Source of the DNA: a virus
Taxonomy: Duplodnaviria; Heunggongvirae; Uroviricota; Caudoviricetes
DNA: 5,846 nucleotides
Direction: 5' to 3' (one strand)
IMG/VR virus record: IMGVR_UViG_2531839446_000024
Location: 1 to 5,846 of that record
Shown here: positions 1,342 through 4,300 of the stretch, in pieces
Layout of the letters: each line of letters opens with the position of its first letter
Position numbering within the stretch: the stretch's first letter is position 1
Made by a program: the position numbers

Positions 1342-4300
1342 TAACCGTATCGCGTTTATTGACCCGGCAAACGGGAATGAAACGCCGATGTTTGTGGTCA
1401 GGGAGATCAGATATTTATGAACGACGTGTTCCTGAAGCGCCTGACGGCCCCGACCATTACCAGTGGTGGAAATCCACCGGCATTTTCCCTGACATCAGAC
1501 GGAAAGCTGACCGCTAAAAATGCGGATATCAGTGGCAGTGTGAATGCGAACGCCGGGACGCTCAACAATGTCACGGTAAATGAAAACTGTACGATTAAGG
1601 GCATGCTGGAGGCGACTCAGGTCAGAGGTGACTTCGTTAAAGCTGTATCCAAATCATTCCCGAAACAGGCTGGTACGTGGGGTAACACGGAAACACCAAA
1701 CGGGACGGTTACAGTCACCATCAGCGATGATCATAACTTTGACCGTCAAATCATTATTCCGCCCATTATCTTTAACGGAATAGCGTATAGCTATCCGGGA
1801 AGTGGTAATAACCCGGGAGGTACAAGATACACGGGTTATGGTTTTGAAGTTCGCAAAAACGGTGTATTAATCGCATCCAGAGAAACTAAAGGGGCCATTC
1901 CCGGTAGCTACAGTGCGGTTATTGATATGCCGAGTGGCAGGGGAAGCGTCACTCTGGAGTTTAAGGTTTTCCATAAAGGCAATCAGCGGGCAGGTAATAT
2001 CACCGACTGTACGGTGATTGTGACCAAAAAAGCCGCTTCCGGCATCAGTATTCGTTGAAATTGTTATAACCCATATAAGGGCACCAGAAATGGTGCCTTT
2101 TTTATTGCAGAAAAGCGAGAGGTAATTATGCGTAAACTTTATGCCGCCATTTTTTCCGCAGCCATCTGTCTGGCCGTATCCGGTGCGCCTGCATGGGCAT
2201 CTGAACATCAGTCCACGCTGAGCGCGGGGTATCTTCATGCCTCGACGAACGTTCCCGGCAGCGATGATCTGAACGGGATTAACGTGAAATACCGTTATGA
2301 GTTTACGGACACACTGGGGATGGTGACGTCATTCAGCTATGCAGGAGACAAGAATCGCCAGCTGACCCATTACAGCGATACCCGCTGGCATGAAGATTCC
2401 GTTCGTAACCGCTGGTTCAGCGTGATGGCGGGGCCGTCTGTGCGCGTGAATGAATGGTTCAGCGCGTATGCGATGGCGGGTGTGGCTTACAGCCGTGTGT
2501 CGACTTTCTCCGGGGATTATCTCCGCGTAACTGACAACAAGGGGAAAACGCACGACGTGCTGACCGGAAGTGATGACGGTCGCCACAGCAACACGTCTCT
2601 GGCGTGGGGGGCTGGCGTGCAGTTTAACCCGACCGAATCCGTGACCATTGACCTTGCTTATGAAGGTTCCGGTAGTGGCGACTGGCGAACGGATGCATTT
2701 ATTGTTGGTATCGGATACCGTTTCTGACAACAGACGCCGATTTATCTTCTGTAAATATTGTTATGATACGCAGGTTCATCCACCTTATGGGGTGAACTGC
2801 GTTTGAGGAAACGTAAAGTTACACTGTCCTGAAGCCCGTGGCGTCACTGCTGCGGGCTTTTTTTATTGGTGGAAAAGTATGACTGTAAAAATTTCTGGCG
2901 TGCTTAAAGATGGCACAGGAAAACCAGTACAGAACTGCACCATTGTGCTGAGGGCCAGACGAACCAGCAGCACGGTGGTGGTGAACACGGTGGCCTCAGA
3001 AAACCCGGATGAAGCCGGGCGTTACACAATGGACGTCGAGTATGGTCAGTACAGCGTCAGTCTGTTGGTGGAGGGATTTCCGCCGTCACACGCCGGGATT
3101 ATCACCGTGTATGAGGGCTCAAAGCCGGGCACACTGAATGATTTTCTCGGCGCCATGGCGGAGGAGGATGTCCGGCCGGAGGCACTGCGTCGTTTTGAAC
3201 TGATGGTGGAAGAAGCAGCGCGTCACGCAGAGGAGGCGAAGAAGAATGCCGGAGAGGCAGAGACGTCCGCGAGGAATGCCGGCATATCAGCCAGTAAGGC
3301 GGAAGCGAGCGCCGCAAATGCTGATACTTCAGCAGAGGATGCATCGGAGTCAGCCCGGCAGGCGGCAGAAAGTGCAGCCTCAGCAAAGCAGTCAGAGGAT
3401 GCGTCCTCGTCCTCGGCTTCTGCGGCCGCTCAAAAAGCCAGTGAGTCATCACAAAGTGCAGCAGAAGCTGAATTGTCAAGAAAGACGGCAGAAAGTGCAG
3501 CCGGTAATGCATCCAGGGATGCGACGACCGCAGCAGAAAAAGCCCGGGAGTCAGCAGAAAGCGCACAGTCAGCGGAACAAAGCAGGATAGCGGCGGAAGA
3601 GGCCGTAAACCGAATCCCCACCGTGGTGGGACCTCCCGGGCCAAAGGGGGAACAGGGGCCCGCGGGTCCTCAGGGGCCGAAGGGTGATAAGGGAGAGCGC
3701 GGTGACACCGGCCCTGTCGGGGCAACCGGCGAACGGGGACCGGCAGGTGATGCTGGTCCGGCAGGCCCGCAGGGGCCGAAAGGTGACATGGGAGAGCGGG
3801 GAGAGACCGGTCTGACGGGAAATGCAGGTCCACAGGGTCCAAAGGGAGATACCGGTGCGGCAGGCCCGGCAGGCCCACAGGGACCGAAAGGAGAAACAGG
3901 TGCGGCTGGCCCGGTGGGGGCAACCGGACCTCAGGGACTGAAGGGCGACCCGGGGGAGACACAAATCCGTTTTCGTCTGGGGCCGATGAGCATTATTGAG
4001 ACAAACAGCTATGGCTGGTTCCCGGATACAGATGGTGCGCTCATCACCGGACTGACCTTTCTTGACCCCAAAGATGCCACACAGGTTCAGGGGATGTTTC
4101 AGCATTTGCAGGTCAGATTTGGTGACGGGCCGTGGCAGGATGTTAAGGGGCTGGATGAAGTGGGCAGTGATACAGGCAGAACAGGAGAATGACATGAACA
4201 TACTAAAAAAACTTATGCAGCGTCTGTGCGGTTGCGGAAAGCATGATGGCTGTGAACACGGGCAGTTACTTACAGCACAACTGCGACTGGGACCGGCAGA

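What the first reader, a model, noticed from the sequence alone, without database searches (positions are those of the whole stretch)
2078..2866. lom is an insulated cassette bracketed by two intrinsic terminators
Strong hairpin-plus-T-tract terminators lie immediately before (2078-2106) and after (2831-2866) lom. The downstream one ends only 13 nt before the stf start codon. This layout is expected for a moron expressed autonomously in the lysogen, while late-operon transcription must read through both terminators to reach stf. The Lom here is diverged from lambda Lom in its predicted surface loops (e.g. HYSDTRWHEDSVRNRW, NKGKTHDVLTGSDDGRHSN).
Basis: partly seen in the sequence, partly recalled or inferred. 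Interest (0 to 1): 0.4.

Follow-up and report, generated by a model that had tools for sequence, protein, structure and literature searches.

The report
Terminators flanking the prophage lom gene
The lom outer-membrane gene of this lambda-like prophage does sit between two strong, conserved transcription terminators, but this is the ordinary layout of thousands of E. coli prophages and of phage lambda itself, and the sequence shows no promoter of lom's own.

Summary
Hairpin plus T-tract sites at 2077-2106 (T1) and 2831-2867 (T2) are by far the two best intrinsic-terminator candidates in the window. They are unidirectional and conserved: 88 of 89 related lom loci have T1 and 86 of 88 have T2. 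T1's stem is kept by compensatory changes. Lambda has hairpins of different sequence at both positions.

Lom-less relatives keep T1 alone between J and stf, so T1 belongs to the J-stf junction and not to lom. The lom cassette is a 21-nt Shine-Dalgarno leader, lom, a 3' UTR and T2, lying directly after T1's T tract. That leaves no room for a cassette-borne promoter, and no sigma-70-like site above chance lies within 180 nt upstream. In contrast, Lom homologues in other prophage positions have long AT-rich upstream spacers, better promoter-like sites and no upstream terminator. A near-identical locus in EPEC E2348/69 shows almost no lom RNA-seq signal in published tables.

Most likely lom and stf are reached by Q-antiterminated late transcription. 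T1 and T2 would then block stray transcription in the lysogen, where lom expression would be weak, leaky or conditional. The loop-divergence claim holds (19% identity in loops against 58% in the barrel). This is ordinary, already-known architecture.

The parts
1417..2058 (+). 3' part of gene J (receptor-binding C-terminal domain). J is interrupted upstream by two indels.
   Evidence: Pfam Ig_GpJ_C 2.5e-27. ORF list. Indels at about 1315 and 1397 relative to lambda h434 J.
2077..2106 (+). T1: intrinsic terminator after J. Stem 2077-2100 (core 2080-2097), GAAA-containing loop, then TTTTTTATT.
   Evidence: d = 34.0. Present in 88 of 89 lom loci, 29-30 nt before the ATG. Four stem pairs show changes on both sides and the core stem has no broken cells. 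Also present in lom-less J-stf junctions.
2107..2127 (+). lom leader GCAGAAAAGCGAGAGGTAATT with Shine-Dalgarno GAGAGG at 2116-2121. This is the only lom-specific DNA upstream of the start codon.
   Evidence: Comparison of lom-less and lom+ junctions. The leader is identical in nearly all lom loci.
2128..2727 (+). lom, a 199-aa Ail/Lom family outer-membrane beta-barrel protein with a signal-peptide-like N terminus (MRKLYAAIFSAAICLAVSGAPAWA).
   Evidence: PF06316 2.4e-120. PDB lambda Lom 9wso_C 1.1e-47; OmpX and Ail about 1e-18. 44% identical to lambda Lom.
2728..2830 (+). Long-type lom 3' UTR: variable first ~30 nt, TGTTATGAT (extended -10-like) at 2759-2767, hairpin at 2768-2801, then a conserved stretch up to T2.
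   Evidence: Alignment and consensus fold of 5 variants. 119 of 119 viral-contig copies lie directly after lom. Found in 1650 of 5426 E. coli genomes. No Rfam match.
2831..2867 (+). T2: the intrinsic terminator of the lom cassette. Stem 2831-2860 (core 2834-2857), then TTTTTTTATT.
   Evidence: d = 43.9. A terminator follows lom in 86 of 88 loci. Lambda/434-type T2 shares the outer stem AGCCCG/CGGGCT. Four of the five stem substitutions among its variants keep pairing as G-U.
2868..4192 (+). stf ribosome-binding region and side-tail-fibre gene (ATG at 2879), which begins 12 nt after T2.
   Evidence: Pfam phage_tail_N 4.3e-65, Collagen and Phage_fiber_C. The sequence after T2's T tract matches the sequence after T1's T tract in lom-less phages.

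Best explanation
T1 and T2 are two Rho-independent terminators in the distal part of the late (tail) operon of a lambda-like prophage.

T1 is the resident terminator of the J-stf junction and exists with or without lom. The lom cassette consists of a 21-nt Shine-Dalgarno leader, lom, a 3' UTR and its own terminator T2. It lies exactly behind T1's T tract. As a result stf is again preceded by a terminator a few nucleotides before its ribosome-binding site.

During lytic growth, Q-modified RNA polymerase from pR' ignores both terminators and transcribes J, lom and stf-tfa. This step is inferred from established lambda biology. In the repressed prophage the two terminators stop stray transcription coming out of the tail genes and out of lom.

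lom has no recognisable promoter of its own in this arrangement. Any lysogenic expression must come from a weak or non-consensus promoter overlapping or upstream of T1, from leakage through T1, or from conditions not sampled so far.

Shown here: the hairpins, their conservation and covariation, the cassette boundaries, and the absence of a consensus promoter. Inferred: termination activity, antitermination, and the source of any lysogenic transcript.
For: - Strength and uniqueness of the two sites.
- T1 is in 88 of 89 and T2 in 86 of 88 related loci, at fixed distances.
- T1 stem covariation: 17 distinct variants, 4 pairs changed on both sides, 91% of cells paired against 36-61% for slid controls, and 0 of 500 shuffles reach the covariation score.
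- Lambda has different hairpins at both positions.
- Lom-less phages HannyBb, PhiR11_1_star, PhiR57_1 and Lambda_2E9 have J, then T1 with TTTTTTATT, then TGTGGAGTGAATATG and stf. This shows the indel boundaries.
- No sigma-70-like site above chance lies upstream of lom. The three J-lom-type modules scanned give the lowest or near-lowest best scores (3.0-5.6). Most Lom homologues scanned in other positions score higher (6.0-9.7); Proteus is low at 3.6.
- Lom homologues in 933W/POCJ13, Gifsy-2, Fels-1 and Proteus have a downstream terminator but no upstream one.
- A near-identical EPEC locus shows lom baseMean of 2.0 and 0.34.
- pR' antitermination as the control of late genes is summarised in PMC7547250.
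Against: - Nothing here measures termination or read-through.
- Published work says lambda and phi24B lom are transcribed in lysogens, uncoupled from phage regulation (PMC1151598; PMC4651098). This implies that a promoter I cannot see does exist, at least in those phages.
- Consensus or PWM scans miss activator-dependent or alternative-sigma promoters.
- The EPEC counts may be depressed by multi-mapping among several lom copies, and they cover only two culture conditions.
- J in this window is frameshifted, so this particular prophage may never run a late programme.
Confidence: 0.75

Rival explanations
1. lom is a self-contained moron with its own promoter in 2059-2127. It is insulated on both sides and expressed constitutively in the lysogen.
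For: Literature statements that lom is transcribed in lambda and phi24B lysogens. A terminator lies on each side. lom is present or absent among otherwise syntenic phages.
Against: Only 21 nt separate T1's T tract from the ATG. T1 and the TTATAACCC motif before it also occur in lom-less phages. No promoter-like site exceeds chance. GC content is not deviant. EPEC PP6 lom has a baseMean of 0.3-2.0, below its silent neighbours. lom was not detected in one lambda lysogen array study (PMC2147009).
Confidence: 0.15
2. The hairpins act mainly as 3'-end stabilisers or processing barriers for J and lom mRNA segments made by antiterminated read-through, and not as stop signals.
For: With Q-modified polymerase they would not terminate, yet the stems are under selection (wobble-only changes in T2). 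GC-rich 3' hairpins are known to block 3' exonucleases (general knowledge).
Against: Long uninterrupted T tracts (6-7 T) directly after the stems are conserved too. A pure stability hairpin does not need them. The two roles are not exclusive.
Confidence: 0.3
3. The long lom-stf spacer carries a separate small-RNA gene, or a 3'UTR-derived sRNA. It would start after the extended -10-like TGTTATGAT (2759-2767) and end at T2, so T2 would be primarily an sRNA terminator.
For: TG-N-TATAAT is kept in the four divergent variants aligned with the window, with N varying. Conservation rises from this motif through to T2, while the first ~30 nt after the stop codon vary. A hairpin followed by a U-rich terminator resembles Hfq-type sRNAs. 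The spacer is found in 1650 genomes.
Against: The PWM score is not above chance. The motif is degraded in one variant, L137. There is no Rfam hit. It is not PasB and not HnrS/EcOnc10. No RIL-seq entry names E2348C_1438 or its spacer in the EPEC tables held (one of those tables is truncated). The spacer is always attached to lom.
Confidence: 0.1
4. The hairpins and T tracts matter chiefly as module boundaries, that is, preferred recombination joints of mosaic lambdoid genomes, with termination incidental.
For: Indel and replacement end-points fall at or inside these elements. The lom+ versus lom- boundary is at the T tracts. In L161, unrelated DNA starts right after T2's T tract. In L008 the break is inside T1, and in L009 it is just downstream of T1, at the start of the lom leader.
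Against: Joints at gene boundaries are expected from selection on function alone. Compensatory stem changes indicate selection on an RNA structure and not on a DNA site. No recombinase site is evident.
Confidence: 0.1

Closest known systems
Phage lambda J-lom-stf (orf-401) region. From memory and not verifiable in the held library: the tandem late-operon terminators t'J1-t'J4 of Luk & Szybalski, Mol Gen Genet 1983.
   Same: Same gene order. A hairpin plus T tract lies 29 nt before the lom ATG (J02459 18920-18935) and another 26 nt after the lom stop (19612-19633), directly before the stf ribosome-binding site. Late genes are read by Q-antiterminated polymerase.
   Different: Lambda's T1 has an unrelated, weaker stem (CGTCCG-GGAA-CGGGCG; d = 9.0 against 34.0). 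Lambda Lom is only 44% identical. Lambda has the short 64-nt lom-stf spacer. The GenBank records J02459 and OM418627 do not annotate these terminators.
Lambda h434 (phage 434 host-range region, OM418627) and most E. coli lambdoid prophages
   Same: J end, T1, leader and lom are identical or nearly so.
   Different: They carry the short spacer with T2 AGCCCGCCGGTTCAGGCGGGC. The window carries the alternative 151-nt spacer, also seen in EPEC PP6, P-EibA and 1650 E. coli genomes.
Classical morons (Juhala et al. 2000, as summarised in PMC3594210), for example HK97 gene 15, and Lom homologues of 933W/POCJ13 and Gifsy-2
   Same: An accessory gene inserted among structural genes, present in some relatives and absent in others, followed by its own intrinsic terminator.
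   Different: A classical moron has its own promoter and often a deviant GC content. Here there is no room for and no sign of a promoter, and GC is ordinary. In 933W, Gifsy-2, POCJ13 and Xenorhabdus the upstream spacer is long and AT-rich, with better promoter-like sites (6.7-9.7 against 3.0). No terminator lies upstream of lom in the five contexts scanned for one: 933W, Gifsy-2, Fels-1, POCJ13 and Proteus.
nleB2 effector cassette in the same window (4639-5619)
   Same: Cargo gene at the distal end of the tail region, with hairpins on both sides.
   Different: GC is 0.34. The window's second-best sigma-70-like site lies 45-70 nt upstream of its ATG. So it has the textbook moron layout that lom lacks.

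Membership tests
Rho-independent (intrinsic) terminator | GC-rich stem-loop with a short loop | tested here: met
   T1 has 10 pairs (7 in the core) and a 4-nt loop, -15.6 kcal/mol. T2 has 12-13 pairs, -20.5 kcal/mol. z is about -3.6 for each.
Rho-independent (intrinsic) terminator | Run of U directly 3' of the stem on the transcribed strand only | tested here: met
   T6 then ATT after T1, T7 then ATT after T2. No T run follows the stems on the minus strand. d scores are 34.0 and 43.9, against at most 8.9 elsewhere in the window.
Rho-independent (intrinsic) terminator | Located after a gene in the same orientation, at a conserved position | tested here: met
   T1 is in 88 of 89 loci, 29-30 nt before the lom ATG. 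T2 is in 86 of 88 loci, 27-28 or 106 nt after the stop.
Rho-independent (intrinsic) terminator | Stem maintained in evolution by compensatory change | tested here: met
   T1: 4 pairs changed on both sides, 0 of 500 shuffles reach the covariation score, and slid controls are much lower. T2: mostly G-U-preserving transitions, which is weaker evidence.
Rho-independent (intrinsic) terminator | Releases RNA polymerase in vitro or in vivo, and is bypassed by Q-modified polymerase | not testable with these tools
   Needs reporter or in vitro transcription assays, or Term-seq.
Moron (independent transcription unit added to a phage genome) | Present or absent between otherwise syntenic phages | tested here: met
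   Four lom-less phages have J-T1-stf with clean boundaries.
Moron (independent transcription unit added to a phage genome) | Own terminator downstream | tested here: met
   T2 lies inside the indel.
Moron (independent transcription unit added to a phage genome) | Own promoter upstream of the gene | tested here: not met
   The cassette has only 21 nt upstream of the ATG. No sigma-70-like site above chance lies in 1950-2127. Caveat: scans cannot exclude a non-consensus promoter that overlaps T1.
Moron (independent transcription unit added to a phage genome) | Base composition different from the neighbours | tested here: not met
   lom GC is 0.553, J 0.49-0.58 and stf 0.597.
Moron (independent transcription unit added to a phage genome) | Expressed from the repressed prophage | tested here: inconclusive
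   Reported for lambda and phi24B (PMC1151598, PMC4651098). Not detected in PMC2147009. A near-identical EPEC PP6 locus has a baseMean of 2.0 and 0.34.
Ail/Lom/OmpX outer-membrane beta-barrel family (PF06316) | Full-length match to the family profile | tested here: met
   PF06316 E = 2.4e-120, residues 1-199 on profile positions 1-199.
Ail/Lom/OmpX outer-membrane beta-barrel family (PF06316) | Alignable over the whole barrel to solved members | tested here: met
   Lambda Lom 9wso_C 1.1e-47. OmpX and Ail 1e-18 to 6e-18 over residues 25-199.
Ail/Lom/OmpX outer-membrane beta-barrel family (PF06316) | Cleavable signal peptide and insertion into the outer membrane | not tested
   The N terminus MRKLYAAIFSAAICLAVSGAPAWA/SE looks like a signal peptide. 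This was read from the sequence only.

The most novel reading that the evidence does not exclude
The alternative long lom-stf spacer (2728-2867) is found in about 30% of complete E. coli genomes. It may not be just a 3' UTR. It may be an undescribed small-RNA unit, with an extended -10-like TG-N-TATGAT/TATAAT at 2759-2767, a start near 2774, and an RNA of about 90 nt ending at T2. Alternatively it may be a processed 3'UTR-derived sRNA. In either case T2 would serve as the sRNA's terminator.
Probability: 0.1. Interest if true: 0.4.

Novelty: already known. Interest (0 to 1): 0.15.

Why it matters
It matters little beyond correct annotation. The terminator-lom-terminator-stf layout is the standard one of lambda, 434 and thousands of E. 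coli prophages.

The useful refinements are these:
- The upstream terminator belongs to J and not to lom.
- The lom cassette in this position is promoter-less, unlike Lom-type morons elsewhere in prophages.
- The textbook statement that lom is a lysogen-expressed moron therefore rests on a promoter nobody has mapped.

This is a caution against inferring lysogenic expression of lom alleles, often listed as virulence factors, from gene presence alone.

Tried and rejected
- Rfam search of the whole window at E <= 1: nothing.
- Consensus and PWM promoter scans: no site above chance before lom or in the lom-stf spacer.
- Bidirectional terminators: rejected, because the minus-strand hairpins are weaker and have no T tract.
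- The TTATAACCC / TGTTATAAC motif just before T1 as the lom promoter: rejected. It lacks the -7 T, it would start the RNA at the terminator hairpin, and it is equally present in lom-less phages.
- The long spacer as the sRNA PasB: rejected. PasB lies between the tail assembly gene and J, on the other strand, in E2348/69.
- The long spacer as HnrS/EcOnc10-12: rejected. These lie between the lysis and terminase genes in Sakai Sp12.
- A small ORF in the spacer (ATG at 2764, 10 codons): rejected. It has no ribosome-binding site, and the ATG is lost in the TATAAT variants.
- The long spacer as a simple insertion into the short one: not supported. Only the outer stem of T2 and its flanks align.
- Literature: Luk & Szybalski 1983, Liu et al. 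2013 (PMC3718152), Barondess & Beckwith 1995 and Casjens & Hendrix 2015 are not held. The t'J terminators are therefore cited from memory only.
- No Term-seq or dRNA-seq tables for EHEC were available.
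Full report
WHAT THE WINDOW IS. The window is the distal tail region of a lambda-like prophage.
- The C-terminal half of J runs 28-1344 and 1417-2058.
- lom is at 2128-2727.
- A side-tail-fibre gene with collagen-like repeats (stf) is at 2879-4192.
- A small fibre-C-domain ORF is at 4194-4463.
- An nleB2-type effector gene is at 4639-5619.
- Complete E. coli genomes match at 93-95% over most of the window, always in this gene order.

THE OBSERVATION.
- T1: stem 2077-2100 (core GGCACC/GGTGCC, 2080-2097), then TTTTTTATT to 2106.
- T2: stem 2831-2860 (core 2834-2857), then T7 and ATT to 2867, 12 nt before the stf ATG at 2879.
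- They are the top two hits of the terminator scan.
- They fold at -15.6 and -20.5 kcal/mol, with z about -3.6 against dinucleotide shuffles.
- In a d'Aubenton-Carafa-type score they reach 34.0 and 43.9, while nothing else on either strand exceeds 8.9.
- On the minus strand the stems are weaker and no T run follows them, so they are unidirectional.

CONSERVATION. I collected 100 lom loci from viral and genome contigs.
- Of the 95 with Lom at least 60% identical, 88 of 89 evaluable loci have a strong terminator whose core stem ends 29-30 nt before the lom ATG.
- 86 of 88 have one starting 27-28 nt (short spacer) or 106 nt (long spacer) after the stop.
- T1 occurs in at least 17 distinct sequence variants. 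These include GGGCACC/GGTGCC, GGGCGTC/GACGCC, GGGCGCC/GGCGCC, a loop inversion, and a Citrobacter version.
- On their alignment, four stem pairs change on both sides and the 7-bp core has no broken cells.
- 91% of cells are paired, against 36-61% when the partner column is slid. None of 500 shuffles reaches the covariation score.
- Lambda itself has an unrelated, weaker hairpin at the same place (CGTCCG-GGAA-CGGGCG then TTTTATT, 29 nt before lom). It also has AGCCCGCCGGAACCGGTGGGC then T6, 26 nt after lom.
- Among variants of the lambda/434-type T2, four of five stem substitutions are C-to-T changes opposite G, which keep a wobble pair.
- These are therefore selected RNA structures. In form and position they are Rho-independent terminators. 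Termination itself was not measured.

WHAT BELONGS TO WHAT. Four phages without lom (HannyBb, PhiR11_1_star, PhiR57_1, Lambda_2E9) have, between J and stf, exactly one terminator. It is T1 (GGGCGCCAGAAATGGCGCC or GGGCACC...GGTGCC, then TTTTTTATT), followed at once by TGTGGAGTGAATATG, the stf ribosome-binding site and start. In lom-bearing phages the sequence after T2's T tract (GTGGGGTGAATATG) is that same stf leader.

The difference between the two states is therefore a clean indel. Its left end is directly after T1's T tract and its right end is in T2's T tract. It contains GCAGAAAAGCGAGAGGTAATT, lom, the 3' UTR and T2.
- T1 is the resident terminator of the J-stf junction.
- T2 came with lom.
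- The "bracket" is a by-product of where the cassette sits.
- Other rearrangements also end at or close to these elements. In L161, foreign DNA starts right after T2's T tract. In L008 the break is inside T1. In L009 it is just downstream of T1, at the start of the lom leader.

THE MISSING PROMOTER.
- Only 21 nt separate T1's T tract from the ATG, and they hold the Shine-Dalgarno sequence.
- The tool's consensus scan finds no plus-strand promoter-like site anywhere near.
- A position-weight scan gives at best about 3 bits in the 180 nt before lom for sites whose -10 is clear of the start codon. Shuffled sequence gives a mean maximum of 7.75.
- The TTATAACCC motif before T1 lacks the critical last T of a -10. 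It would start the RNA at the terminator hairpin. It is just as conserved in lom-less phages.
- lom's GC content (0.553) is like that of J and stf.

Lom homologues sitting elsewhere look different. These are 933W and POCJ13 after the tail genes, Gifsy-2 and Fels-1 between M and L, and Proteus and Xenorhabdus among tail genes.
- In the five that were scanned for terminators (933W, POCJ13, Gifsy-2, Fels-1, Proteus), a terminator lies 22-90 nt after the stop and none lies upstream. The Xenorhabdus locus scanned (L102) showed no convincing terminator on either side.
- They have 90-130-nt AT-rich upstream spacers, and most have better promoter-like sites 31-66 nt before the ATG: scores of 6.7-9.7 against 3.0 here and 4.0 in lambda. 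Fels-1 (6.0, 103 nt before the ATG) and Proteus (3.6) are weaker.
- The classical promoter-gene-terminator moron layout thus fits 933W, POCJ13 and Gifsy-2 best, but not lom in the J-stf position.

EXPRESSION DATA.
- Papers state that lom is transcribed in lambda lysogens (PMC1151598, PMC7067206) and in phi24B lysogens, constitutively (PMC4651098).
- One array study failed to detect it and notes that little is known about the lom promoter (PMC2147009).
- EPEC E2348/69 prophage PP6 carries the same architecture: a T1 variant, an identical leader, 93% identity over the region, and an identical 151-nt spacer with T2.
- In the RNA-seq tables of PMC8550237, its lom (E2348C_1438) has a baseMean of 2.0 (activating) and 0.34 (non-activating). 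This is below J (15 and 6.7) and stf (7.0 and 5.3). Cargo genes two to four ORFs downstream reach 48-538.
- Multi-mapping among lom copies could lower the count, and only two conditions were sampled. Still, there is no sign of an autonomous, insulated transcription unit.

MOST LIKELY MECHANISM. In the lytic cycle, Q-modified polymerase from pR' reads through T1 and T2 and expresses J, lom and stf-tfa. This is established lambda biology; the principle is summarised in PMC7547250. In the repressed prophage the terminators confine stray transcription. Lysogenic lom expression, where it occurs, must come from leakage through T1 or from a weak, non-consensus or condition-dependent promoter overlapping or preceding T1. 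The hairpins may in addition stabilise the 3' ends of processed J and lom mRNA. In this particular window J carries a +1 indel at about 1315 and a -1 indel at about 1397, with a stop at 1342-1344. The prophage may therefore be defective, or the assembly may contain errors.

THE LOM-STF SPACER. The window has a 151-nt spacer where lambda and 434 have 64 nt. Only the outer T2 stem and its flanks align between the two.
- The long form is in 1650 of 5426 complete E. coli genomes, nearly invariant.
- It is always directly behind lom: 119 of 119 viral-contig copies, in 15 variants.
- It contains TGTTATGAT (TG-N-TATAAT in rarer variants, with N varying) at 2759-2767, a hairpin at 2768-2801, and a well-conserved stretch up to T2. 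The first ~30 nt after the stop codon vary.
- This could be read as a small-RNA unit ending at T2, but the evidence is against it. The promoter score is not above chance. The motif is degraded in one variant. Rfam has nothing. It is neither PasB nor HnrS/EcOnc10. The EPEC RIL-seq tables held contain no entry for this spacer.
- I keep this as the low-probability novel reading.

THE LOOP CLAIM. Window Lom is 44% identical to lambda Lom. It aligns over the whole barrel to lambda Lom (PDB 9wso_C), OmpX and Ail. Identity is 13 of 68 (19%) in L1-L3, 62 of 106 (58%) in strands and turns, and L4 is identical. Strand limits were transferred from OmpX, whose topology I give from memory. This is the usual pattern for surface-exposed outer-membrane proteins.

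VERDICT. The architecture is that of lambda itself. As far as I recall, the terminators distal to J were described as t'J sites by Luk & Szybalski in 1983; I could not retrieve that paper. The same architecture is shared by thousands of prophages. It is an ordinary, already-known feature. The modest additions are that T1 belongs to J, and that lom in this position lacks a recognisable promoter.

Noticed in passing
window 1300-1420: J is interrupted. Relative to lambda h434 J there is a +1 insertion at about 1315 and a -1 deletion at about 1397. This gives a stop at 1342-1344, and the conserved peptide [27 protein letters not shown] is read in another frame. Either the prophage is defective or these are assembly errors.
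   Followed up: yes
window 4464-5650: The nleB2-type effector gene (4639-5619, GC 0.34) has the textbook moron layout that lom lacks. A weak hairpin plus T5 lies at 4482-4503 after the preceding ORF. The window's second-best sigma-70-like site is upstream (-35 TTGAGT at 4568, -10 TAGATT at 4590). A hairpin at 5622-5640 follows the stop.
   Followed up: partly
window 2728-2830: This is an alternative long lom 3' UTR with an extended -10-like TGTTATGAT (2759-2767) and a hairpin (2768-2801). It is in about 30% of complete E. coli genomes, always attached to lom. It matches no Rfam family and is neither PasB nor HnrS.
   Followed up: partly
L238 (E. coli E2348/69, NC_011601 1469700-1472200): EPEC prophage PP6 has the same T1-lom-long spacer-T2-stf arrangement. 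Published RNA-seq tables give lom (E2348C_1438) a baseMean of 2.0 and 0.34, lower than the flanking silent tail genes.
   Followed up: yes
L109-L112 (lom-less phages HannyBb, PhiR11_1_star, PhiR57_1, Lambda_2E9): The J-stf junction without lom keeps T1 and places the stf ribosome-binding site directly after its T tract. The lom indel boundaries lie in the T tracts of T1 and T2.
   Followed up: yes
L161 (after T2); L008 and L009 (before lom): Three loci are rearranged, with breakpoints at or next to the terminators. In L161, unrelated DNA starts right after T2's T tract. In L008 the 5' arm of T1 is replaced. In L009 everything upstream of AAAAGCGAGAGG is replaced.
   Followed up: no
L099-L102 (Proteus, Xenorhabdus); L104, L105 (Gifsy-2, Fels-1): Distant Ail/Lom homologues are inserted at other places in the tail operon (between M and L, or before a K-like gene). 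Most have their own downstream terminator, and none of those scanned has an upstream one. These look like independent insertions of the same kind of cargo.
   Followed up: partly
window 2128-2727 (protein): The PDB copy holds an entry, 9wso chain C, named 'Outer membrane protein lom' (lambda Lom, 206 aa). No paper on it was found in the held library.
   Followed up: no
L096 (E. albertii NBRC 107761 contig NZ_BBMY01000232): This contig is 100% identical to the window's Lom over residues 133-199. Its lom-stf spacer is identical as well, with two base differences early in stf. The best complete E. coli genomes reach only about 94.7% over the window, so the window may come from E. albertii or from an E. 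coli not in the complete-genome set.
   Followed up: no
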